Part shown: piece by piece, positions 3,987 through 41,362 of the stretch
Numbering within the stretch: the stretch's first letter is position 1
Layout of the letters: every line of letters begins with the position of its first letter
Virus genome (UHGV): UHGV-0138423
DNA from: a virus
DNA: 42,842 bases
Strand: one strand, 5' to 3'
Translations under genes and position numbers: made by a program
The notes under the pieces: generated by a model
Database searches by the model: none
Told to the model about the DNA's origin: nothing
Seen by the model: only the letters and a program-made list of their open reading frames with translations

Positions 3987-4666
3987 CAGAGTAATACTCC
4001 CCATGCCCCTACATCAAAACCACTGATAAATTCGTTATCCATATCAAAACCAAAAAATTTTGAACCTTCCGATGGGGTTTCCACCGAAGGTGTTTCTATG
4101 CCACCCGCCCACACCCCGGCGGCTTTTACTGTGAGATATCCCTGTTTAATTACAGCAATTAACTCACGCGATACATCTGAAATATCAGTATCAGGAAAGA
4201 CCCAGACCGATATCGTCATGTCCTGGTTATCGACAATCTGCATTCGCAGCCCGGATCCTGCTGTCGCCGTGTCAAGAATTGCCGGAAGCGAATCATTCCG
4301 TCCGTCCCAGTTATTAATCGCAATCTTCGCTTTAAGGATGACACGATAAGTTTCATCGCTGAGGTACATGTATCCGGAATCAGGATCATATGGCCCCTGC
4401 CATACCCCCTGATCATATCCAAGCCCGTCGGTATCCCAGCTGAAATAGACACCTGAGATAGACTGGCTGACAACACGGCTACGTCCGATCCACAATCCCA
4501 GAATGTCAAGTTGCACACCAACCGCAGAGTCAATATCAAATGCAGTAATCAGCCCTCTGGTGGCAGCCGCAACATCAATAAGCGGCCGGGTCATCAGATC
4601 AACATGCGCAAGAAATTTAGGTTTGGTGGCGTGGTAGTTCGTGATTAGTTCGGTGTATTTGCTCAT
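3986..4666 (-). CDS. Baseplate/tail protein (gpI-like position, between baseplate J and tail fiber)
   Basis: 226-codon ORF, translationally coupled to the J-like gene; position equals P2 gpI / Mu gp48. Family assignment from synteny only. Confidence 0.5.
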   Translation of the reverse strand: MSKYTELITNYHATKPKFLAHVDLMTRPLIDVAAATRGLITAFDIDSAVGVQLDILGLWIGRSRVVSQSISGVYFSWDTDGLGYDQGVWQGPYDPDSGYMYLSDETYRVILKAKIAINNWDGRNDSLPAILDTATAGSGLRMQIVDNQDMTISVWVFPDTDISDVSRELIAVIKQGYLTVKAAGVWAGGIETPSVETPSEGSKFFGFDMDNEFISGFDVGAWGVLL

Positions 4667-5862
4667 GACTCCACCGTTATAACGATATTTTCCGGGGTAC
4701 AGGACGCAGATTCGTTATATCTGATATCAATGTTTGATGACGACAAAGCCCCCGGGGATTTCCCAATCGTCAGTTCCTGAATATCGTAATAGCGAGCATT
4801 CCCGCCACTCACCACGCCAAGATTCGCCGGTGAGTAAATGCGACTTAAAAGGACCGAATCACCAATCGTCAGACTATTGATATAGTCGGAAATAGCCTGC
4901 TGGATCTGCTGCCCTATCTGTGAGGTATAACCCGTAAAAACTTTTAATTTAATCCGGGCATAAACAGGCACATCACTGGAACGCGAGAATTTGATTACAT
5001 GGGGATTGCCGTATTTATCCGGAACCGTAACGGATGTTGTACCGTGAGTGGCTGTCCCCTGGCCTTTATTCCCTCTGATAGCCTGAGCAATATCCGTCAC
5101 ATCACCGCCATCCACAATTACAGCAACAGAGTGTGGCGGTAACCCGTTACCGTCCTCCGAACCAGTATCGTTTTCATAGAGTTTGTGGCGGGTTACACCG
5201 GTAACATTAGAAACAGCACCATCCAGTGCTTCAAATGGGGTTATTGATGGCAACGCAACACTTTGCGACTGGCGGATACGTAACTCCGCGTCAGTTTCTG
5301 CCGGAGTGCCCACGGTAGCCGCAGCAGGATTAGTTACCGAAACCCAGCCACGGGTTGGCGTATTTATTTCAGTGATAGTTCCAGCCAGCGCCGCCACTGC
5401 ACCACTGACGGAACATGTTGCAGTCACCATCACTGTACCATCCACGCCGACCACCACTGAAGCAGGCAAACGCCATATCACATTATTACTGTCTTTCACG
5501 CTGCCATTAATGATGGTTGTTCCGGCAGTTCCTGTAAGAAGCAAATCAACCGTAGAATTCGTCGCGCCTTTACGTGAAATACCATTTATTTTCACGTTAC
5601 TGGTCAGTGCAGCCCCATAGCCGGTTGCCGGTGAAAAACAGTTGTAGACAGTTATCGCCGTATTATTGGCATCATGAATCGCCAGCGCCATCAGAGCCAC
5701 CATCTGGCCGTCTTTGCTGTCCGGTTCGAGGTAGGCATCACTGCCATAAATCTGCTGAAAATAGCTAATCAGGGTGCTGAGTATCGTCTGATAATCAGGC
5801 GCACTGATCCCCTCCGCGGTTACCTTTGCAGATAAACCGAGAGAATCAAGGTTCAGAGCCAT
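4663..5862 (-). CDS. Baseplate J-like protein
   Basis: 399 aa; size, position after the W-like gene and overall character fit the baseplate J (gp47/gp6-like) family. Confidence 0.7.
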   Translation of the reverse strand: MALNLDSLGLSAKVTAEGISAPDYQTILSTLISYFQQIYGSDAYLEPDSKDGQMVALMALAIHDANNTAITVYNCFSPATGYGAALTSNVKINGISRKGATNSTVDLLLTGTAGTTIINGSVKDSNNVIWRLPASVVVGVDGTVMVTATCSVSGAVAALAGTITEINTPTRGWVSVTNPAAATVGTPAETDAELRIRQSQSVALPSITPFEALDGAVSNVTGVTRHKLYENDTGSEDGNGLPPHSVAVIVDGGDVTDIAQAIRGNKGQGTATHGTTSVTVPDKYGNPHVIKFSRSSDVPVYARIKLKVFTGYTSQIGQQIQQAISDYINSLTIGDSVLLSRIYSPANLGVVSGGNARYYDIQELTIGKSPGALSSSNIDIRYNESASCTPENIVITVES

Positions 5863-6215
5863 TACGCCTCCGATGTAACAGTCGTTATTCCATAAAGAGT
5901 GTCGATTTCAGCGGAAAACATGACACGTCGGGTCGTGGTATCCACCGTCGTATTGAAAGAGAGGATTGATTTAACGCCCCGCGTTTCGAGGATGCGCTTA
6001 CGGATCGCCAGGTTGTAGGTTTCCGGCTTCTGCTTACCGAGCACAGACTGGATCCACGGAGTCCCTTCGGTGGTGTCGAGAAACCATTGCCCATACCACA
6101 ATTCGAATCGCGTTTTTACCGCCTGCGCCACGGCCTCCGGTGAGTTAATCAGCCAGGTGTCATCACCGCTGCCAAAGGTGTAATCTCCATCGGCGTCTTC
6201 ACGTCTGTATCGCAT
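5862..6215 (-). CDS. Baseplate wedge protein W (gp25-like)
   Basis: 117 aa ORF between the V-like and J-like genes; N-terminal region typical of the GPW/gp25 family. Confidence 0.65.
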   Translation of the reverse strand: MRYRREDADGDYTFGSGDDTWLINSPEAVAQAVKTRFELWYGQWFLDTTEGTPWIQSVLGKQKPETYNLAIRKRILETRGVKSILSFNTTVDTTTRRVMFSAEIDTLYGITTVTSEA

Positions 6216-6967
6216 CAGTTTACTCCGTCGGTATTGCTTCCACCACGCTGAACACCACCATGAGTGTGCGTATCATCGATTGGCTTGCCGTTAGCCTTCA
6301 CGCTACCCAAAAACTCAACAGCACCAGTGATTTTTGAAGCCACACCAGAAACAACAGATCCCACCATGCCACCCATCCAGGTTAACAGGCCATGAATGGT
6401 TACTTTCTCAGAAAAATCAGCCAGAGGGGCAACCACATCAAGACCACCCGGAGCGACAATTTTAATTTTCCGGGTATCAGGATTAAGCTCAAAATAGGTG
6501 CTGCCGTCGTCACTACGCAACTGTGTGGCACTGGTATTAATACCGCTAATCTTCCTTGCCTGCGACTGGGGACCGACAATACAAAAAGCATCCGATAAAT
6601 CATGCATTCTGTCATCGACCGGCTCCTGTATCCCGCCACTCTGCCACCAGAAATCAATACAACGATCGGCAAAAATCACCAAACATTCATCACCGGCTTT
6701 AACTGGGAACGTTAGCGTGCATCCTCCGCCGCGCGGGAATACCACTGGCACATCCACCAGCAATGGGTAATTTTGGGTAATGCGGTTGCCGTCATTATCC
6801 TTTTCAACCGAACGGATAGCAGGCTGCACAACTGCCGTCACCGCATCTGGATCGAATGACTGAATAATGCCAGGCAAGGCGACACGGATCTGGTTCTTTG
6901 TTGTTTCCCGTTCAGATTTGAATGTTTCGGCAAGGTCGCCGCTGCGGGTCTGGTCAGATACTGCCAT
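6215..6967 (-). CDS. Baseplate central spike / assembly protein V-like
   Basis: 250 aa with an N-terminal OB-like region and a Gly/His-rich C-terminal tip (..DDTHTHGGVQRGGSNTDG..); position upstream of W and J as in Mu gp45 / P2 gpV. Confidence 0.65.
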   Translation of the reverse strand: MAVSDQTRSGDLAETFKSERETTKNQIRVALPGIIQSFDPDAVTAVVQPAIRSVEKDNDGNRITQNYPLLVDVPVVFPRGGGCTLTFPVKAGDECLVIFADRCIDFWWQSGGIQEPVDDRMHDLSDAFCIVGPQSQARKISGINTSATQLRSDDGSTYFELNPDTRKIKIVAPGGLDVVAPLADFSEKVTIHGLLTWMGGMVGSVVSGVASKITGAVEFLGSVKANGKPIDDTHTHGGVQRGGSNTDGVN

Positions 6968-6985
6968 TTAGTAGGCTCCAGAAAG

Positions 6986-7010
6986 CAAAAAACCCGCCGG
7001 GTGGCGGGTT
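6986..7010 (-). terminator. Rho-independent terminator after the secreted-protein genes
   Basis: Minus-strand RNA AACCCGCC-ACCC-GGCGGGUU followed by UUUUUUG; lies between the stop at 7034 and the V-like start at 6967. Confidence 0.6.
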
Positions 7011-7033
7011 AAATGGTGTCTGCGATAAGGTTC

Positions 7034-7399
7034 CTACATTTTCGTGCAGGTCTTATAGATGGCATCACCACGGGGGCGATCATCTGCGTCTAAAATCTGA
7101 ACTATTTGTTTAATAGTTTTTGAATCGTTAGGGAAAACAGTTGTGTAGTGGTTATGCATCCCACCATTCGCCCCCCATACATCAAATGTGATGACCACCG
7201 AATCCCCCAAGTCACCGTACGGATACTGGTCAGTGGCTGAATTTTCTGTTAGCTGATCGTTCATTATGACTGCCTGTTTACTCATTGAGGCATTCACATA
7301 CATTACAAATTTATCGTCACCGCACTTAAAGCGCAAAACAGGCGCTGCAAGCACGCTATACGACATAAAAACAAGAGATAAGAGAGCTAAGCGCTTCAT
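7034..7399 (-). CDS. Small secreted protein (moron), function unknown
   Basis: 121 aa; N-terminus MKRLALLSLVFMSYSVLA is a typical Sec signal peptide; mature part has Cys near both ends; AT-richer than the flanking tail genes; followed by its own terminator. Confidence 0.6.
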   Translation of the reverse strand: MKRLALLSLVFMSYSVLAAPVLRFKCGDDKFVMYVNASMSKQAVIMNDQLTENSATDQYPYGDLGDSVVITFDVWGANGGMHNHYTTVFPNDSKTIKQIVQILDADDRPRGDAIYKTCTKM

Positions 7400-7411
7400 T
7401 AATCCCCCCTG

Positions 7412-7756
7412 TTAATTAACTTTTTTGCATGGGAAAGACCCGATGATTCTAGGCGCGTCCATGCTGTTCTGCAGAAGCTGGACGTTCAGGAAACGCGTTT
7501 CGGTGCCCGGTCGATGGATATACTCGAACCCATAATTGTGGCCATCTTTGGCAGGCATCAGCCCCATTTTGATCTGCATGCCTGTACCGTCTTTACCCAA
7601 CATTTTTACTTTTTGGGACGTTACTGTTTCGCCATTGATTTTAAATAATGAGTCAGGGATCGCATCCATACGAAAGTTGCCGCATTGCATCGTTATGGTG
7701 TTTGCACTTACACCAACAGACACTAACGCCAGCAATGAAAATATCCATCGTTTCAT
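7412..7756 (-). CDS. Small secreted protein (moron), function unknown
   Basis: Start taken at the internal ATG (MKRWIFSLLALVSVGVSA signal peptide) preceded by GAGAGGA; the ORF-track start is an upstream GTG. Mature protein has N- and C-proximal Cys like its neighbour. Confidence 0.55.
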   Translation of the reverse strand: MKRWIFSLLALVSVGVSANTITMQCGNFRMDAIPDSLFKINGETVTSQKVKMLGKDGTGMQIKMGLMPAKDGHNYGFEYIHRPGTETRFLNVQLLQNSMDAPRIIGSFPCKKVN

Positions 7757-7758
7757 TT

Positions 7759-8829
7759 CTATAATCCTCTCTGCAAAGCAGTGCTGGATGGCATATCCTG
7801 CGCACCGCGCGCTTCGCACATCATATCCATGTACCAGGCCTGGCCCCTTGTGTCGCCAGTGTACATAATCCCGCGCACAATATAAACGCCATCAGTTGCG
7901 ATGCTGGCCGTCATTTGTTTGGACACGGGCAGGGTAACGTTAGAGTTGCCATCTATTGTTTCGTCAAAGTAACGTCCCGCTGCTTTAGCAATATCGTCAT
8001 TCGGTAAAGCTGTTTTATAGATAGAAGCCTGATCCAGTTGAATTAGCCCGTTAACCCGGATGTTCGGATTAATAAGCGCGCGGACGTTTACGCCGTTACC
8101 GATAGTCTGCTGCGGCATGCCAATAAGCCCGGTAGCGCTGTTGAGCACAATCGCTTCATGAACATATTCGTTATTCGCCACCATCTGGCGCTGACCGTCC
8201 ACGAATTGCCATGTTGCGCCACATTGCCCGGCTACGTTATCCATTAGATGCCGCGTCATGCCAAAGAGTACCCGCCCCCGGGGGAATACAGTAGCAGGCA
8301 TTTCAGGCGTCAGGCCTTCGGTCGCGCCTTTGGCTTCGAAGTCTTTCATCAGCGCACGGTTTACATCAGCGACCGTGTAACCGGCAGCCAGCGTCTGTGA
8401 GGTTATACTGGTGGCAAAAGCCAGATCAGTATCTGCTGCCTGAATCAGGACGTAGGAATCAACCGGACTGTCTTTTCCTGTGACCGAGTAGCGAATTTCA
8501 CCGCTGAAAATCAGTCCGTAGTTGCGGCCATCACTCTGACCCACGTCCGCCGCGTCAACTTCCCGCACGGTCCCGACGTCGCTTGCCGACACCTCCGGCG
8601 CGATACCGTCGTAACCGGCAATCAGACGCACTTTCGAAAACTCCTGCCCGGTGATTCGGTTCACAGTATCTGCCGAGAGGTTATAAATTTTGATAGTCCC
8701 TACCCGGGACGCGCTGCTGATGTTGAACCAGTCGATCGTAAAGGTGACTTTAAAATCACTTAGCTCAATTCCCTGACCGTTCCCGTCCACAAGCTGCAGC
8801 TCGAAATGTCTCATCCAGTTCTGTGACAT
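7759..8829 (-). CDS. Baseplate hub-like tail protein
   Basis: 356 aa ORF between the small tail proteins and the spike gene; assignment by position in a contractile-tail baseplate cluster. Confidence 0.45.
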   Translation of the reverse strand: MSQNWMRHFELQLVDGNGQGIELSDFKVTFTIDWFNISSASRVGTIKIYNLSADTVNRITGQEFSKVRLIAGYDGIAPEVSASDVGTVREVDAADVGQSDGRNYGLIFSGEIRYSVTGKDSPVDSYVLIQAADTDLAFATSITSQTLAAGYTVADVNRALMKDFEAKGATEGLTPEMPATVFPRGRVLFGMTRHLMDNVAGQCGATWQFVDGQRQMVANNEYVHEAIVLNSATGLIGMPQQTIGNGVNVRALINPNIRVNGLIQLDQASIYKTALPNDDIAKAAGRYFDETIDGNSNVTLPVSKQMTASIATDGVYIVRGIMYTGDTRGQAWYMDMMCEARGAQDMPSSTALQRGL

Positions 8830-16040: not shown

Positions 16041-16982
16041 TTAAATGCCATCAACGTACGAAATGGTTTCTTTGTACACTGGCTCGACTGCACCCAGCTT
16101 GCCGTAGTAAGTGACGATCTGATACAGACCGCGATACTGCACCGGCACGCTCTGAAGCGGAACCAGCGGGTAGCGGACGTATTTTTTATCGTTGGTGTAC
16201 GCAACCATGCGATCCTTATTCCCCACACCACGGCCTTTCAGCCATTTAACCGCGCGGATATTCAGCGGAACACCGTTCTGGTGATAGCTGATGGTGTTGG
16301 TCTGAAGGTACGTCAACAGGGACTGGTTACCCGCAGATGAAACGATGATGCTGGACAACAGAGCAAACTGCTCAGGCGGGATCAGCAAATCACGCGGAAC
16401 CACAGAGTAACCGGAAGCGGCCCACGCATCAGACAGCACCTGGTTAATGCTTGCGCGGATTTCGTCCGGTGTTGAGGTTGCCCACGTTTTGGCAGCGTTG
16501 TTGACAGGCACACCGTCCAGGGTAACAAGACCTTTCAGGTTTAATGCGGAATCGCCAACATACACCTGTTCATCGTTATCCATCTGCCATTTCAGTTGCA
16601 TCCCGTCATACTTCTGCGTATCGATCGGGCGTCCGACCTGCTGAGCAGCCTGCAATTCTATGACCGTCCAGCCAAGTTCCATCCCCCACAGGTTCAGCGG
16701 GTTACCGGATTTGCCGATATCCACGTTCACGCCAGCAATAGCGGTTGAGTCTTTGCCTACCCAGTTTTTGCCATTCGGATTTGCACCAGTACCCGCAGCG
16801 GCGAAGCTGGTATTCGTCCAGCTGGAAATGTCATCTGCGATAGAGACATCTTCACGCAACTGAATATCGCGGGTCCAGGTGTACCCCACCAGTGGCAGGT
16901 TCAGCGTCTGGTCGAGTCGCTCCAGCTCCCCGATGAGAAAGGCACCAGAGCTGTCAACGGTTGCCTGATCAAAAGTAATCAT
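16041..16982 (-). CDS. Major capsid protein
   Basis: 313 aa ORF following scaffold/protease and a 168 aa protein, in the position of the major head subunit (Mu gpT-like arrangement). Confidence 0.65.
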   Translation of the reverse strand: MITFDQATVDSSGAFLIGELERLDQTLNLPLVGYTWTRDIQLREDVSIADDISSWTNTSFAAAGTGANPNGKNWVGKDSTAIAGVNVDIGKSGNPLNLWGMELGWTVIELQAAQQVGRPIDTQKYDGMQLKWQMDNDEQVYVGDSALNLKGLVTLDGVPVNNAAKTWATSTPDEIRASINQVLSDAWAASGYSVVPRDLLIPPEQFALLSSIIVSSAGNQSLLTYLQTNTISYHQNGVPLNIRAVKWLKGRGVGNKDRMVAYTNDKKYVRYPLVPLQSVPVQYRGLYQIVTYYGKLGAVEPVYKETISYVDGI

Positions 16983-25604: not shown

Positions 25605-25764
25605 AATGACGCCCTCTGGTGGTTTCTAAACCATCACCACCGTCAGGTTCCTAATCATCGGGTGGTGAGACGTACAGGGTTAGGAACTACCGGGAAACCA
25701 ACCGGCGAGCTTTTCAGCTCCCCCATACGCCCCACCATAATTCAGATGTGCGCGTGCATACGAC

Positions 25765-25789
25765 AATAAAAAACACGCTCGCGGCGTGT
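25765..25789 (-). terminator. tR'-like intrinsic terminator downstream of the late promoter
   Basis: Minus-strand RNA ACACGC-CGCGA-GCGUGU followed by UUUUUUAUU, about 60-80 nt downstream of the predicted pR' start. Confidence 0.55.
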
Positions 25790-25851
25790 GTCTGTCGCGG
25801 TCTCTATCCGGGGTTCCTAATCCCGACGCCAGATTTTGCTGGCGCGTGAGG

Positions 25852-25881
25852 AATATAGCCCCGAATAACAGATTGAGTCAA
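25852..25881 (-). promoter_or_regulatory. pR'-like late promoter overlapping the Q stop codon
   Basis: Minus strand: -35 TTGACT (plus 25876-25881), 18 nt spacer, -10 TATATT (plus 25852-25857); same position relative to Q as lambda pR'. Confidence 0.45.
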
Positions 25882-27389: not shown

Positions 27390-27641
27390 CTAACAGGATG
27401 CTCTGACTCGTAATTCATCCAGCAGTTTATCATTTCCCATAATGTCACTTACCCTCATCGGTAAAAAAATTGCCTTTCGACCATTACGATACATCATTGA
27501 TTTTGGGTTTTCAGGGAAGTAATCCATTTCGACTATAACTGACAGGTCATCACGACGTATGACTGCGTATTTGCAACTAAATAGTTTCTTTATTTTTTCC
27601 ACGATGCCTCCGAGTTTATAAGTACAAACGGTTATATCCAC
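27390..27641 (-). CDS. Hypothetical small protein
   Basis: 83-codon ORF starting with GTG in the track; an internal GTG preceded by GGAGG (..GGAGGCATCGTGGAAAAA..) is a more likely start (~70 aa). Confidence 0.35.
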   Translation of the reverse strand: MDITVCTYKLGGIVEKIKKLFSCKYAVIRRDDLSVIVEMDYFPENPKSMMYRNGRKAIFLPMRVSDIMGNDKLLDELRVRASC

Positions 27642-27785
27642 ATAGAGACAAAAATATTAATCTGAAAAATATTTATTTCACGCCGTATATTTGATTATTT
27701 AATGTGCAGGTGCAATGACTTTTATTTTTTGTTGTGTATATAATCAAATATATGGTTATTTTTCACCCTGCGTATTCGGCGCGCA

Positions 27786-27809
27786 ACAAAAAACCCGCCG
27801 AAGCGGGTT
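27786..27809 (-). terminator. Intrinsic terminator downstream of hok
   Basis: Minus-strand RNA AACCCGC-UUCG-GCGGGUU followed by UUUUUUG, about 70 nt past the hok stop. Confidence 0.55.
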
Positions 27810-27877
27810 AAGTGCGGGTGCGTTGAGGATGCCTGACACATCAGAGGTGGCGAGGGATTTCTCCCCCGCCAGGTCTC

Positions 27878-28033
27878 TTACTCCTCAGGTTCGTAAGCTG
27901 TGAAGACAGCGACCTCCGTCTGGCCGGTTCGGAGTCGTACCTCGCAGAGGTCTTTCCTCGTTACCAGTGCCGTCACTATGACGGTTAAACAGATGACGAT
28001 CAGGGCGATTAACATCGCCTTTTGCTGCTTCAT
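27878..28033 (-). CDS. hok: Hok/Gef-family type I toxin
   Basis: 51 aa from the internal ATG: MKQQKAMLIALIVICLTVIVTALVTRKDLCEVRLRTGQTEVAVFTAYEPEE, essentially identical to E. coli HokD/RelF as I recall it. Confidence 0.8.
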   Translation of the reverse strand: MKQQKAMLIALIVICLTVIVTALVTRKDLCEVRLRTGQTEVAVFTAYEPEE

Positions 28034-28292
28034 AGCCTGCTTCTCCTTGCCTTTCGGCACGTAAGAGGCTAACCTACGTGTGTAGAGCATAGATATGGCC
28101 TCAGATTAATGTTAAGCGTCTTGCCGGACGCGTAATGTTAACTGGGGCTTTTCTCTATCTGCCTTTTGGTGTTCATGCCTGAGACAGATAGCCTCAAGCA
28201 CCCGCAGTTATTCTACTTAACTAAGATTTCCCCGCAAACCGTTTTTGTCCGGCACAGTAAATATCCAACTAAACCAATGGCGTTCGCTGTAT

Positions 28293-28472
28293 TTACCGCC
28301 AGTATTCAATGCACATGACCGCCATGAACACCCCTAAAAAAAGGGCATTTATATGTCCAAACATTAATATCAAAACATCAATTTTTTCCATATACCTTGC
28401 TGTGAAGATGATGGGCATACATGATGCGAACAACCAGAACGCAACAAACAAAAACTGCAATGCGTTTTTCAT
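28293..28472 (-). CDS. Small hydrophobic membrane protein
   Basis: 59 aa from ATG after GGGGGA; two predicted transmembrane helices (..LQFLFVAFWLFASCMPIIF.. and ..ALFLGVFMAVMCI..); very AT-rich. Confidence 0.35.
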   Translation of the reverse strand: MKNALQFLFVAFWLFASCMPIIFTARYMEKIDVLILMFGHINALFLGVFMAVMCIEYWR

Positions 28473-28592
28473 TATTCCCCCTACAATCAATGTGCAATAA
28501 CATTTAAACACACCTCAATTTGGCCGGACATATAAATATCTAAACCAGAAAAAATCACTTACATAGCGTTACAAACTCTTTAGTCTAAATAT

Positions 28593-29108
28593 TCATCGTA
28601 AAACATCCTCCACGCTTATCAGTCCATTTCGTTTCAGGTAATCCATCGCCTTCTCCGGTAATTTGCAGTCCGGCTGAGCTTTTTTCAGTTGACTGACCAG
28701 TCGTTTAACCCACATTGTTAATTCGCTAACCTGATTGCCGGATGCTGGTGGATTGTCGGCTTTACCCAGAATGGCAGCGCAGCAGGCCTCTCTGAGCACC
28801 CAGTCAACAGCATCCTTCCATGCTCCTGTTTCGACTGGCGGATTCTCACGCTTTACCTGTTCATAAAAGCGCACGGCTTTAACCAGTCCTTCTGATGTCA
28901 CCGGGACTGGCGGGCCGATGAATAAGGCCTGAATTTCATAGTTCGGCCTGTCGTTACAATCCTCTTTTGTCGGTACATATTTCCAGTCACCAGCCCACGG
29001 CTTCCCCTGAAAGTCTGTAACGTCTTTTTTCACGTAGCGATATCGCCATGCAACTGGTTTTGCCTGCCCTGCCGTTTCATGCCCTTCCTGATAATTAATC
29101 TCGCTCAT
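28593..29108 (-). CDS. Hypothetical protein
   Basis: 171 aa ORF, translationally coupled (ATGA) to the upstream acidic ORF; no family recognised. Confidence 0.5.
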   Translation of the reverse strand: MSEINYQEGHETAGQAKPVAWRYRYVKKDVTDFQGKPWAGDWKYVPTKEDCNDRPNYEIQALFIGPPVPVTSEGLVKAVRFYEQVKRENPPVETGAWKDAVDWVLREACCAAILGKADNPPASGNQVSELTMWVKRLVSQLKKAQPDCKLPEKAMDYLKRNGLISVEDVLR

Positions 29109-40986: not shown

Positions 40987-41181
40987 ATGCGGTATGAAAA
41001 AGTCAAACCATGTCCGTTTTGTGGTTGTCCATCAGTAACGGTGAAAGCCATTTCAGGATATTACCGCGCAAAGTGTAACGGATGCGAATCCCGAACTGGC
41101 TATAGTGGAAGTGAAAAAGAAGCACTCGAAAGATGGAATAAACGAACTACTGGAAATAATAATGGAGGTGTTCATGTATAA
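40987..41181 (+). CDS. ralR: Restriction alleviation protein (Lar/RalR family)
   Basis: 64 aa: MRYEKVKPCPFCGCPSVTVKAISGYYRAKCNGCESRTGYSGSEKEALERWNKRTTGNNNGGVHV; Cys4 zinc-ribbon; matches Rac RalR as I recall it. Confidence 0.8.
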   Translation: MRYEKVKPCPFCGCPSVTVKAISGYYRAKCNGCESRTGYSGSEKEALERWNKRTTGNNNGGVHV

Positions 41182-41362
41182 AATTACTGCCACTATTGAA
41201 AAGGAAGGTGGCACTCCTACTAACTGGACAAGGTACTCAAAAACAAAATTAACCAAATCAGAATGCGAAAAAATGCTCTCAGGTAAAAAAGAAGCAGGCG
41301 TTTCCAGAGAGCAGAAAGTAAAGCTGATAAATTTTAATTGCGAGAAGCTTCTGTCCTCGTGA
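41174..41362 (+). CDS. ydaC: YdaC-like small protein (DUF1187)
   Basis: 62 aa from ATG after GGAGG (MYKITATIEKEGGTPTNWTRYSK...); position between ralR and xis as in Rac. Confidence 0.5.
   Translation: MYKITATIEKEGGTPTNWTRYSKTKLTKSECEKMLSGKKEAGVSREQKVKLINFNCEKLLSS

What the first reader, a model, noticed from the sequence alone, without database searches (positions are those of the whole stretch)
27786..28472. hok-type type I toxin locus inside the nin-like region, adjacent to an AT-rich small membrane protein gene
A Hok/Gef toxin ORF (51 aa) with a downstream terminator lies between nin-like genes, and 260 bp upstream there is a separate 59 aa two-helix membrane protein gene with its own RBS. 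Hok loci normally come with an overlapping mok frame and an antisense Sok RNA; here the in-frame upstream extension is atypical, so the regulatory arrangement may differ. The neighbouring membrane peptide could be a second toxin or exclusion protein.
Basis: partly seen in the sequence, partly recalled or inferred. Interest (0 to 1): 0.45.

Follow-up and report, generated by a model that had tools for sequence, protein, structure and literature searches.

The report
Intact prophage hok/sok toxin cassette
This is an ordinary, complete copy of the well-known hok/mok/sok toxin-antitoxin cassette carried by an E. coli prophage, and next to it lies a probably real but uncharacterised 59-residue membrane protein gene that travels with this cassette.

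Summary
All features lie on the minus strand.

**hok cassette**
- hok (28033-27878, 51 aa) matches Pfam HOK_GEF (E 6e-23).
- Its leader (28203-28028) matches the Rfam hok/sok model (117 bits; gathering score 59).
- The cassette is complete:
  - hok promoter
  - 5' tac element, predicted to pair with a 3' fbi element
  - anti-SD box
  - mok start
  - antisense Sok gene (28082-28152, + strand), whose promoter is identical to the experimentally validated sokW promoter of phage 933W/Sp5
  - terminator
- The locus is about 93% identical to hokW-sokW.
- Its toxin is 50/51 identical to HokD (RelF) of prophage Qin.

**mok frame**
- The "atypical" in-frame extension is simply mok. The annotated mokC/hokC (K-12) and mokW/hokW (933W) have the same 57-nt in-frame offset. 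Only plasmid R1 itself is out of frame.

**orf59**
- orf59 (28472-28293) has no known family and RefSeq does not annotate it.
- It is probably a real gene. A 44%-identical homologue of the same length exists, the codon-position pattern is that of a coding sequence (dN/dS about 0.23), and it is again next to a hok remnant.
- Its function is unknown. Nothing shows that it is part of the toxin-antitoxin system.

**Verdict:** already known; low interest.

The parts
28210..28237 (-). hok promoter: -35 TTGCGG (28237-28232), 16-nt spacer, -10 TAGAAT (28215-28210); inferred transcription start is G at 28203
   Evidence: Read directly from the sequence and located. Conserved in 933W. The position matches that of the R1-type and hokC loci. 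It was not picked up by the strict consensus scan, in keeping with the weak hok promoters of this family (own knowledge).
27786..28203 (-). Full-length hok (mok-hok) mRNA, about 418 nt
   Evidence: MFE fold -172.7 kcal/mol, z = -8.4 against 100 shuffles. The 5' end pairs with the 3' end.
28028..28203 (-). hok mRNA leader, matching Rfam RF01794 'sok'. The model lies on the hok-sense strand and runs from tac to the hok AUG
   Evidence: 117.1 bits, gathering score 59, E 3.6e-26, full-length match 1-157/157.
28192..28203 (-). tac (translational activator) element GGGUGCUUGAGG at the mRNA 5' end
   Evidence: Pairs with fbi in the full-length fold. Refolds into a local hairpin with 28184-28175 when the 3' end is removed. 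The core GCTTGAGGCT is invariant in the window, R1-type and hokC loci.
28144..28147 (-). anti-SD / ucb box (CCCC within AGCCCC), predicted to pair with the mok Shine-Dalgarno
   Evidence: Pairs with GAGG 28102-28099 in the predicted folds. AGCCCC is invariant across the three aligned loci. This is the position of the mok anti-SD described for R1 in PMC9841398.
27878..28090 (-). mok reading frame: 70 aa, in frame with hok, SD GAGG at 28102-28099
   Evidence: ORF list. Same arrangement as the annotated mokW and mokC.
27878..28033 (-). hok toxin CDS: 51 aa, SD GGAG at 28046-28043
   Evidence: Pfam HOK_GEF E 6.3e-23. 50/51 identical to Qin HokD. No frameshift or stop.
27892..27895 (-). TACG at Tyr47 of hok: the motif type reported for TadA A-to-I recoding (Tyr to Cys) in hok mRNAs
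   Evidence: Sequence read directly (codon table). The editing of hokB/C/D/E is described in bioRxiv 10.1101/2025.08.07.668861. Editing at this site here is inferred and was not tested.
27816..27828 (-). fbi (fold-back inhibitory) element CCUCAACGCACCC
   Evidence: 12 base pairs with tac and one bulged C. Conserved in 933W.
27786..27809 (-). Intrinsic terminator of hok mRNA: 7-bp stem, 5 G-C pairs, GCTTCGGC loop region, T-run
   Evidence: In 80 related phage loci the shared DNA block ends at 27789/27790, immediately after it.
28047..28075 (+). Sok promoter: -35 TTGCCT (28047-28052), 17-nt spacer, -10 TAACCT (28070-28075)
   Evidence: Identical in sequence to the 933W/Sp5 sokW promoter region. 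Primer YO-421, whose sequence changes this -10 element, fits the paper's promoter-less sokW construct, which lost antitoxin activity (PMC8621323); which primer built the construct is my reading of the sequence.
28082..28152 (+). Sok antisense RNA, about 71 nt: single-stranded 5' tail, long hairpin, U-tail. Complementary to the mok SD and start codon
   Evidence: Coordinates transferred from the sokW feature annotated in 933W. Fold -29.7 kcal/mol, z = -4.7. Expression not tested here.
28293..28472 (-). orf59: 59-aa predicted two-helix membrane protein, SD GGGGGA at 28481-28476, T7 homopolymer at 28342-28336
   Evidence: ORF. Hydropathy and AlphaFold hairpin. 44%-identical homologue of the same length, dN/dS about 0.23, and the only frame open in both. 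No family match.

Best explanation
[quoted passage not shown] It sits between the replication/ead-like genes and the late-regulator block of a Rac/lambdoid-type E. coli prophage.

Mechanism of the cassette. The sequence elements are shown here. The function is inferred from the R1 and hokW work.
1. A weak promoter makes an mRNA of about 418 nt. Its 5' tac element pairs with the 3' fbi element, which locks the molecule in a stable, untranslatable form with the mok Shine-Dalgarno held by an anti-SD box.
2. Slow 3' trimming removes fbi. The 5' end then refolds into a local tac hairpin, and the mok initiation region becomes available.
3. The short-lived 71-nt Sok RNA is made constitutively from the opposite strand. 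It pairs with the mok SD and start codon, blocks mok translation and hence the coupled hok translation, and marks the duplex for cleavage.
4. When the Sok supply stops, Hok is made, inserts in the inner membrane and collapses it. Possible triggers are prophage induction, prophage loss or a transcription shut-off.
5. In a prophage the likely pay-off is earlier lysis and release after induction, as shown for hokW-sokW in Sp5. Stabilisation of the prophage or abortive defence are other possibilities.

The in-frame 70-aa ORF is mok in the form usual for this subfamily.

orf59 is most likely a separate, genuine gene for a small inner-membrane protein with a two-helix hairpin.
- It is probably read as part of the early-right operon, since it has its own SD but no detectable promoter or terminator.
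- It is inherited together with this hok cassette in Qin- and Rac-type prophages.
- It is not needed for hok/sok regulation.
- My best guess for its role is an accessory (moron-like) membrane function such as exclusion or a membrane-stress effect. That step is pure inference.
For: hok cassette:
- Pfam HOK_GEF E 6.3e-23. Rfam hok leader 117 bits.
- tac-fbi pairing of 12 bp closes the MFE fold, z = -8.4. A 5' refold is predicted after 3' truncation.
- Sok has a hairpin and a U-tail.
- 93% mean column identity over 487 aligned columns with the 933W hokW/mokW/sokW locus, with an identical Sok promoter and Sok hairpin.
- hokW-sokW was shown experimentally to be a type I toxin-antitoxin pair that aids lysis and phage release (PMC8621323).
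- The toxin is 50/51 identical to Qin HokD.
- In-frame mok is annotated for hokC and hokW.
- hok genes are known to be enriched in prophages (bioRxiv 10.1101/2025.08.07.668861).

orf59:
- A homologue of identical length at 44% identity was found by a search of 1.84 billion representative proteins.
- The 59-codon alignment is gapless. Identity by codon position is 58/69/49%, dN/dS is about 0.23 (dS near saturation), and a Fisher test of position 3 against positions 1+2 gives p = 0.047.
- It is the only one of six frames open in both homologues.
- The SD and the start codon are conserved, whereas the 72-aa upstream extension is not.
- Every copy examined is followed by a hok leader or a hok remnant.
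Against: - No expression data exist for this copy. The Sok and hok transcript ends are transferred by homology, not measured.
- Chromosomal hok loci tested earlier did not mediate post-segregational killing (cited in bioRxiv 10.1101/2025.08.07.668861), so activity cannot be assumed.
- In my predicted folds the mok SD stays paired to the anti-SD box after truncation as well. The activating switch is therefore only partly reproduced by MFE prediction.
- For orf59, all 7 polymorphic sites among 76 intact IMG/VR copies are non-synonymous. Frameshift alleles at a T7 run exist in public data.
- RefSeq/PGAP never annotates orf59.
- No promoter was detected for orf59.
- The distant orf59 homologue lies in a decaying prophage remnant.
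Confidence: 0.82

Rival explanations
1. orf59 is a functional third partner of this hok cassette. It could be a membrane protein that modulates Hok (immunity or antiholin-like), a second toxin, or an ORF whose translation or transcription tunes the hok promoter that starts 56 nt downstream of its stop.
For: - The linkage is strict. In 80 IMG/VR loci, orf59 is always followed by the hok leader.
- The 44%-identical type-B copy is also followed by a hok fragment.
- In Qin, orf59 stayed with the hok leader.
- There is no terminator between orf59 and the hok promoter.
Against: - About two thirds of E. coli genomes with a hok-like match lack orf59: 4943 genomes have the hok match and 1568 have orf59.
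- The experimentally working hokW-sokW of 933W has no orf59 upstream. Homology with the window starts only about 20 nt upstream of the hok -35 hexamer.
- R1 and hokC also lack it.
- orf59 stays intact in copies where hok is destroyed by an IS or a deletion, so it does not depend on hok.
- Linkage over about 260 nt is expected from simple co-inheritance.
Confidence: 0.08
2. orf59 is not a gene. It would be a chance open frame in T-rich, AT-rich spacer DNA, which automatically translates into hydrophobic residues.
For: - 35-38% G+C, and T-rich on the coding strand.
- No Pfam, PHROG, NCBIfam or PADLOC match.
- Never annotated by PGAP.
- Within type A, 7 of 7 polymorphisms are non-synonymous.
- Frameshift and truncated alleles occur.
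- No significant fold match.
Against: - The homologue has the same length at 44% identity, with start and stop in the same places, and no indel over 177 nt, while the flanks need gaps.
- Identity by codon position runs 2 > 1 > 3, and dN/dS is about 0.23.
- The other five frames are closed in the homologue.
- A strong SD sits at the right spacing and is conserved as AGGGA in the homologue.
- 76 of 78 sampled copies are intact.
Confidence: 0.15
3. The hok cassette is a silent relic, like several K-12 chromosomal hok loci. It would be carried passively and have no effect on the prophage or the host.
For: - Earlier work found chromosomal hokA/B/C unable to mediate post-segregational killing (cited).
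- Many related copies are visibly inactivated. An IS-bounded insertion at the hok start is present in 692 of 5426 genomes, and the Rac-site remnant carries a truncated hok.
Against: - Every element is intact here.
- The closest characterised relative (about 93% identical, with the same Sok promoter) is active and affects lysis and phage yield.
- The prophage around it looks complete.
Confidence: 0.12

Closest known systems
hokW-mokW-sokW of Stx phage 933W / Sakai prophage Sp5 (Takada et al. 2021, PMC8621323)
   Same: - 92.5% nucleotide identity over 440 nt by megablast; 93% mean column identity over the 487 columns aligned.
- Same hok promoter, tac, anti-SD box, mok ATG (in frame, 57 nt upstream of hok) and fbi.
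- The Sok promoter and the Sok hairpin are identical base for base.
- Same PHROG, number 251.
   Different: - Position in the phage differs. In 933W the cassette lies near the right end, after the large ORF L0134 and two small hypothetical genes. Here it lies in the nin-like early region.
- The 3' end diverges right after fbi, so 933W lacks this terminator.
- The Hok C-terminus differs (...VFTAYEPEE here...VFVDYESEK in 933W, translated from the 933W row).
- There is no orf59 upstream in 933W.
hokD (relF) of cryptic prophage Qin, third gene of the relBE-hokD operon of E. coli K-12
   Same: - The toxin is 50/51 identical (I34L).
- Same hok SD, 3' UTR, fbi and terminator.
- In ATCC 8739-type Qin, the same orf59 and hok promoter/leader are also present upstream.
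   Different: - In Qin the leader (promoter, tac, sok, mok start) is cut off from the hokD coding sequence. The cut is made by a 3,299-bp insert with IS1202-like ends and a 15-bp direct repeat. The insert carries a truncated transposase, ydfW, flxA, ydfV and relBE.
- K-12 has lost the leader and orf59 altogether.
- The window holds the uninterrupted arrangement, with a single copy of the 15-mer at 28046-28032.
hok/mok/sok (parB) of plasmid R1, the archetype
   Same: - Same architecture: Hok peptide family, mok leader ORF, antisense Sok against the mok initiation region, tac/fbi 5'-3' lock, anti-SD box.
- tac and fbi differ from the R1-type locus on both sides in a compensating way: GGGUGC/GCACCC here against GGCGC/GCGCC.
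   Different: - Low protein identity. HokW, the close relative of this toxin, is 44% identical to R1 Hok (PMC8621323).
- In R1 itself mok is out of frame with hok. The 58-nt offset is derived from the numbering in PMC9841398. Here the offset is 57 nt and in frame.
- The replicon is a plasmid, where the role is post-segregational killing.
- The first leader hairpin is about 15 nt shorter here.
hokC/mokC/sokC (gef) of E. coli K-12
   Same: - mokC and hokC are annotated with a shared stop codon and a 57-nt in-frame offset, exactly as here.
- The leader is readily alignable.
   Different: - It is a chromosomal locus flanked by IS186 in K-12.
- The toxin is 50 aa.
- It is not in a prophage.
- There is no orf59.
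orf59 'type B' copy at the Rac attachment-site remnant of E. coli ABU 83972-type strains (GenBank EEJ46887.1, hypothetical protein)
   Same: - 59 aa and 44% identical.
- Conserved motifs W..SC.PII.T, LMFGH.NAL..GVF and IE.WR.
- Followed by hok sequence.
   Different: - It lies in a small decayed remnant between an intR fragment and ABC-3 fragments/uspF/ompN.
- Its hok is reduced to a 3' fragment.
- It is present in 1045 of 5426 genomes and is also unannotated by PGAP.

Membership tests
[quoted passage not shown] | A Hok/Gef-family peptide of about 50 aa with an N-terminal transmembrane helix and a conserved C-terminal part | tested here: met
   PF01848 80.6 bits (cut-off 22), residues 6-47 matching profile positions 1-42 of 42. 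PHROG 251 E 4e-33. ORF intact.
[quoted passage not shown] | An overlapping mok leader ORF that starts upstream of hok and has its SD and AUG inside the Sok target | tested here: met
   ATG 28090 with GAGG 8 nt upstream, 57 nt upstream of and in frame with hok. The mok ATG is invariant in the alignment with the R1-type and hokC loci. Same annotation as mokW and mokC. The Sok region 28082-28152 covers it.
[quoted passage not shown] | An antisense Sok RNA gene with its own promoter, a hairpin and a U-tail | tested here: met
   TTGCCT-17-TAACCT at 28047-28075 (+), identical to the validated sokW promoter. A 71-nt RNA with a 5' tail, a hairpin and UUUU, z = -4.7. Tested at sequence level only; transcription was not measured.
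[quoted passage not shown] | Long-range tac (5') to fbi (3') pairing that closes the full-length mRNA | tested here: met
   28203-28192 pairs with 27828-27816, 12 bp with 1 bulge, in the MFE and centroid folds. The differences from the R1-type locus compensate on both sides.
[quoted passage not shown] | Refolding after 3' processing: the tac hairpin forms, and the mok SD is released from the anti-SD (ucb) | tested here: inconclusive
   Truncated RNAs are predicted to form the local tac hairpin (28203-28192 with 28184-28175). However, the mok SD stays paired to CCCC 28147-28144 in the MFE folds. The 3' processing itself cannot be tested in silico.
[quoted passage not shown] | Match to the curated covariance model of the locus | tested here: met
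   RF01794 117.1 bits against a gathering score of 59, full length. The match is on the hok-sense strand.
[quoted passage not shown] | Hok is toxic and Sok neutralises it | not testable with these tools
   Shown for the 933W/Sp5 homologue, which is about 93% identical (PMC8621323). Not shown for this copy.
Type I toxin (as proposed for orf59) | A small hydrophobic peptide with an overlapping or adjacent antisense RNA gene, or a structured 5' UTR, that controls its translation | tested here: not met
   The peptide is small and hydrophobic. The consensus scan found no antisense promoter or terminator around 28293-28600. No Rfam match there, even at E up to 1. Toxicity was not tested.
Any described protein family (for orf59) | A significant profile or fold match | tested here: not met
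   No hit in Pfam, PHROGs, NCBIfam or PADLOC. No BFVD fold match with E <= 0.001. Relatives are found only in Escherichia/Shigella and in a few samples and one assembly whose organism I could not identify.

The most novel reading that the evidence does not exclude
orf59 may define an unannotated family of two-helix inner-membrane proteins of about 59 aa. Two allele types were found, in 1568 and 1045 of 5426 complete E. coli genomes respectively (overlap between the two sets not determined). The family has been genetically tied to the hokD-type cassette since before the two types diverged to 44% identity. On this reading it acts together with Hok, for example as a membrane-level modulator or immunity factor, or as a second effector that sets lysis timing after prophage induction. 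That would make this a three-part toxin module rather than a plain hok/sok pair.
Probability: 0.08. Interest if true: 0.5.

Novelty: already known. Interest (0 to 1): 0.18.

Why it matters
The hok cassette adds little. hok/sok loci in E. coli prophages are catalogued, and the nearest relative has been characterised experimentally. Three modest points are useful.

1. The in-frame mok is normal for the hokC/hokD/hokW group. It should not be flagged as anomalous in future scans.
2. RefSeq leaves a gap of about 560 nt here. It annotates neither mok, nor Sok, nor orf59, although orf59 is probably a real small membrane protein present in a large share of E. coli genomes.
3. This window shows the uninterrupted form of the locus whose disrupted version is the classical relBE-hokD (relF) operon of prophage Qin. 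That suggests how the operon arose.

Tried and rejected
- **Family searches for orf59.** Pfam, PHROGs, NCBIfam and PADLOC gave no hit.
- **Fold search.** The BFVD search with the AlphaFold model returned only generic helical hairpins, none with E <= 0.001.
- **Genome-contig scan with an orf59 alignment.** It returned two Shigella flexneri genomes and one spurious Asticcacaulis match.
- **Origin of the distant homologue.** I first suspected an insect-symbiont-like degraded genome. This was rejected. A member of the same 90%-identity protein cluster (one residue different) is encoded in E. coli ABU 83972-type strains at the Rac attachment site. The organism of GCA_013422975.1 remains unidentified.
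- **The 83-aa ORF downstream of hok (27641-27390).** It has the same length as Rem, which follows hokD in Qin, but there is no similarity. It belongs to PHROG 1813.
- **The hok part of the multiple alignment.** It was contaminated by loci with an IS at the hok start, so its variability figures for hok and the leader were discarded. Only the orf59 columns were used, and they were re-derived from a sample that does not depend on the rest of the ORF.
- **My recollection about the mok frame.** I recalled that mok is out of frame in R1. This looked contradicted by an IncF plasmid copy with an in-frame mok. It was resolved with the numbering in PMC9841398: a 58-nt offset in R1 itself, 57 nt elsewhere.
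- **Literature searches.** Searches for the orf59 peptide, for hok in the nin region, and for the accession numbers found nothing.
- **The consensus promoter scan.** It found no more sites than expected by chance (3 against 2.6), and none upstream of orf59.
Full report
**1. What is in the sequence**

All features of the finding lie on the minus strand, the strand of the surrounding prophage genes.

- hok occupies 28033-27878 and encodes a 51-residue peptide.
  - It matches Pfam HOK_GEF at 80.6 bits (cut-off 22, E 6.3e-23).
  - It matches PHROG 251 'MokW-like host killing'.
- A 7-bp G+C-rich hairpin with a T-run follows at 27809-27786.
- An in-frame ATG at 28090 gives a 70-aa ORF.
- The 59-aa ORF, called orf59 here, is 28472-28293.
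  - GGGGGA lies 3 nt before its ATG.
  - Its stop is 259 nt upstream of the hok ATG.
  - G+C is 35-38%, against 47-60% for its neighbours.
- Downstream genes are DUF1367, YbcO/DUF1364 and a DUF1133 protein with a marginal match to the Q-antiterminator family (26.6 bits against a cut-off of 26).
- A 99.8%-identical copy in E. coli C25 lies in an apparently complete prophage between yebY and pphA.
  - Its early genes are Rac-like: int, xis, ralR, recT, recE, kilR, ydaT-like and ydaV.
  - Its late genes are contractile-tail genes.

**2. The hok cassette is complete and canonical**

The gathering-threshold Rfam scan of the window gives RF01794 'sok' at 28203-28028 on the minus strand. The score is 117.1 bits (gathering 59, E 3.6e-26), over the full model length. 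The match is on the hok-sense strand and ends at the hok AUG. In effect this is a model of the hok mRNA leader. Sok itself is the reverse complement of the middle part of the leader.

The elements read directly from the sequence and located are:

| Element | Coordinates | Strand |
|---|---|---|
| hok promoter, TTGCGG-16-TAGAAT | 28237-28210 | - |
| tac, GGGUGCUUGAGG | 28203-28192 | - |
| anti-SD, CCCC | 28147-28144 | - |
| mok SD, GAGG | 28102-28099 | - |
| mok AUG | 28090 | - |
| hok SD, GGAG | 28046-28043 | - |
| fbi, CCUCAACGCACCC | 27828-27816 | - |
| terminator | 27809-27786 | - |
| Sok promoter, TTGCCT-17-TAACCT | 28047-28075 | + |
| Sok RNA | about 28082-28152 | + |

Folding results:
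- The 418-nt RNA folds at -172.7 kcal/mol, z = -8.4. Twelve tac-fbi base pairs close the molecule.
- With the 3' end removed, tac is predicted to refold into a local hairpin with 28184-28175. That is the kind of switch described for R1 (PMC9841398).
- The mok SD stays paired to the anti-SD box in my MFE folds after truncation as well. That step of the switch is not reproduced in silico.
- Sok folds as a single-stranded 5' tail, a long hairpin and a U-tail, z = -4.7.

**3. Relation to known loci**

The region is widespread and well catalogued.
- 4943 of 5426 complete E. coli genomes hold a match to it. PGAP names the CDS hokD.
- 102 phage records match, among them 933W, where mokW, hokW and sokW are annotated.

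Comparison with 933W:
- Aligned with 933W, the locus shows 93% mean column identity.
- The stretch that carries the Sok promoter and the Sok hairpin is identical.

Experimental work on hokW-sokW by Takada et al. (PMC8621323):
- HokW is toxic.
- sokW expressed from its own promoter neutralises it.
- A promoter-less sokW construct abolishes this. Primer YO-421, whose sequence changes the -10 element TAACCT, fits that construct.
- After mitomycin C treatment, sokW RNA disappears and HokW accumulates in the inner membrane in a RecA-dependent way.
- Deleting the locus delays growth arrest and halves phage release.

Other context:
- A 2026 preprint catalogues 6290 hok homologues in IMG/VR phages and shows enrichment in prophages.
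- The toxin here is 50/51 identical to HokD of prophage Qin.

**4. The 'atypical' in-frame extension is mok**

- In K-12, mokC (16751-16960) and hokC (16751-16903) share a stop codon, so the offset is 57 nt and in frame.
- The same is annotated for mokW/hokW in 933W.
- An IncF plasmid copy that encodes the R1 Hok protein exactly also has the mok ATG 57 nt upstream and in frame.
- In the three-way alignment the mok ATG is invariant, and no gap separates it from the hok ATG.
- In R1 itself the mok start is at 116-118 and the hok start at 174-176. That is a 58-nt offset, out of frame. This follows from the substitution names in PMC9841398.
- The frame relation therefore varies within the family. 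That fits the published view that translation of mok matters, and the Mok product does not.

**5. orf59**

No family or fold match:
- It has no match in Pfam, PHROGs, NCBIfam or PADLOC.
- There is no significant fold match. The AlphaFold model is a helical hairpin, H2-27 and H30-58, pLDDT 75.6.

Close relatives:
- They are confined to Escherichia and Shigella, at 75% identity or more.
- GenBank submitters call it a hypothetical or membrane protein.
- Its DNA is present in 1568 of 5426 complete E. coli genomes, always at 95% identity or more. PGAP did not annotate it in any row listed.

Evidence within this allele type is uninformative or mildly negative:
- I sampled 78 IMG/VR copies that were selected only by the first 23 nt.
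- 76 of them are intact, and all 7 polymorphic sites are non-synonymous.
- Frameshift alleles at a T7 run occur in public assemblies.

The decisive evidence came from a search of 1.84 billion representative proteins. It found a homologue of identical length at 44% identity.
- The two genes align without gaps over 59 codons, with the same start and stop.
- Identity by codon position is 58/69/49%. dN/dS is about 0.23, with dS near saturation.
- A Fisher test of position 3 against positions 1+2 gives p = 0.047.
- This is the only one of six frames open in both.
- The 72-aa GTG extension is not conserved, because a stop lies 5 codons upstream in the homologue. This supports the 59-aa start.

I conclude that orf59 is probably a real gene, with confidence of about 0.8. 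Its function is unknown. No promoter, terminator or antisense-RNA signal was detected around it. It is most simply read as part of the early-right operon.

**6. Linkage of orf59 and hok**

- In 80 IMG/VR loci retrieved with the orf59 protein, orf59 is always followed by the hok leader.
- The shared DNA block ends at 27789/27790, just after the hok terminator. On the other side it ends inside the 3' part of the upstream gene.
- The type-B homologue lies in a decayed remnant at the Rac attachment site (ttcA, intR fragment ... uspF, ompN). It occurs in ABU 83972-type strains, 1045 genomes in all. It too is followed by a fragment of hok.
- Conversely, about two thirds of genomes with the hok match lack orf59. 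The working hokW-sokW, R1 and hokC loci also have none.

orf59 is thus an old neighbour of this hok subfamily, not a required component.

**7. How it most likely works here**

Shown:
- All sequence elements of a hok/sok cassette are present and intact.
- The Sok promoter is identical to a validated one.

Inferred from R1 and hokW:
- The mRNA is stable and locked.
- It is activated by slow 3' trimming.
- Sok blocks mok, and therefore hok, translation.
- Hok is made when Sok is no longer supplied, notably after prophage induction.
- The result is membrane damage, earlier lysis and greater phage release.

My own inference for this location:
- The cassette is co-oriented with the early operon, and no terminator lies between the upstream gene, orf59 and hok.
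- Induced early transcription would therefore run through the cassette in the hok-sense direction, against the Sok promoter.
- That would favour Hok production on induction.
- The hok terminator would also attenuate read-through towards the Q-like late-regulator gene.

None of this inference was tested.

**8. Side result: the Qin hokD locus**

In Qin of ATCC 8739, the elements lie in this order:
1. orf59 and the hok promoter and leader, up to ...GGAGAAGCAGGCTAT.
2. A 3,299-bp segment that carries a truncated DDE transposase (called ISNCY by PGAP), ydfW, flxA, ydfV, relB and relE.
3. GGAGAAGCAGGCTAT again.
4. The hokD coding sequence and its 3' UTR.

Features of the segment:
- It starts with TGT and ends with ACA.
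- Its ends are imperfect inverted repeats, with 20 of the first 28 nt identical.
- TGT/ACA ends, imperfect terminal repeats and unusually long target duplications are traits of the IS1202 family. The paper gives more than 15 bp in its abstract and 16-28 bp in its text, so the 15-bp repeat here sits at the edge of that range (PMC10132070).

Distribution:
- The left junction is present in 692 of 5426 genomes.
- K-12 keeps only the right junction.

The window carries a single copy of the 15-mer (28046-28032). It therefore represents the uninterrupted state of the locus whose disrupted form is the classical relBE-hokD operon. I could not establish whether this has been described before.

**9. Verdict**

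- The finding is real and correctly recognised as a hok locus, but it is a known system in a known kind of place.
- The suspected regulatory anomaly does not exist.
- orf59 is a modest lead: an unannotated, probably genuine small membrane protein linked to hokD-type cassettes.
- Novelty: already known. Interest: about 0.18.

Noticed in passing
L180 (E. coli ATCC 8739, Qin prophage) 4620-8530; window equivalent 28046-28032: The classical relBE-hokD (relF) operon looks like the product of an IS-bounded insertion into a locus like this one. The insert is 3,299 bp and carries a truncated ISNCY/IS1202-like transposase, ydfW, flxA, ydfV and relBE. It has TGT...ACA ends, imperfect terminal inverted repeats and a 15-bp direct repeat GGAGAAGCAGGCTAT. 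It separates orf59 and the hok leader/sok from the hokD CDS. The junction is present in 692/5426 E. coli genomes. K-12 keeps only the right junction.
   Followed up: partly
L175 6001-6400 (E. coli, ABU 83972-type; also L169, L170): A second, 44%-identical orf59 allele ('type B') lies next to a 3' fragment of hok. It sits in a decayed remnant at the Rac attachment site (ttcA, intR fragment ... ABC-3 fragments, uspF, ompN). It is present in 1045/5426 complete E. coli genomes and PGAP does not annotate it.
   Followed up: partly
window 28204-28592: In the 99.8%-identical RefSeq copy, about 560 nt between the upstream hypothetical gene and hokD carry no annotation at all. There is no mok, no Sok RNA and no orf59.
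   Followed up: yes
window 27892-27895 (minus strand): Tyr47 of hok is encoded by TAC followed by G (TACG, within CUUACGAAC). This is the motif type reported for TadA A-to-I editing, which recodes Tyr to Cys in hokB and, according to a 2026 preprint, in hokC/D/E. Editing here would create a second cysteine.
   Followed up: no
window 28336-28342 (minus strand): orf59 contains a T7 homopolymer. Public protein sets contain several alleles frameshifted exactly there (55-aa and 83-84-aa products). One of the 78 IMG/VR copies sampled is cut short there (45 aa). Whether this reflects decay, sequencing error or phase variation is unknown.
   Followed up: partly
window 27788-27869 (minus strand): The hok 3' UTR gives a sub-threshold match to the Rfam isrK model (30.5 bits, gathering 50, E 2.4e-4). 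The match probably reflects the generic layout of two hairpins plus a terminator.
   Followed up: no
window 25658-25858 (minus strand): Full-score Rfam matches to isrK (25768-25845), C4 antisense RNA (25658-25742) and its a1/b1 target (25805-25858) lie just downstream of the Q-like DUF1133 gene. An ORF6N-domain gene follows in the related C25 prophage. This suggests a P1/Gifsy-type C4/isrK-controlled antirepressor or anti-Q module.
   Followed up: no
window 41180-41358 (minus strand): RalA sRNA, the antitoxin of the RalR type I system, matches at 212 bits next to a ralR gene. The prophage therefore carries a second type I toxin-antitoxin pair.
   Followed up: no
window 27715-27744 (+ strand): The best sigma-70-like site of the region (ATGACT-18-TATAAT, 10/12) lies in the 29-31% G+C spacer downstream of hok. 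It points into the hok 3' end, so it is antisense to hok. The number of such sites is no higher than chance.
   Followed up: no
window 28028-28203: The Rfam family named 'sok antitoxin' (RF01794) matches the hok-sense strand and ends at the hok AUG. A hit to it marks the hok leader, not the strand of the Sok RNA.
   Followed up: yes
window 27390-27641 (minus strand): The 83-aa ORF after hok (PHROG 1813, unknown function) has the same length and position as rem, which follows hokD in Qin, but shows no sequence similarity to it. The shared block ends at the hok terminator.
   Followed up: yes
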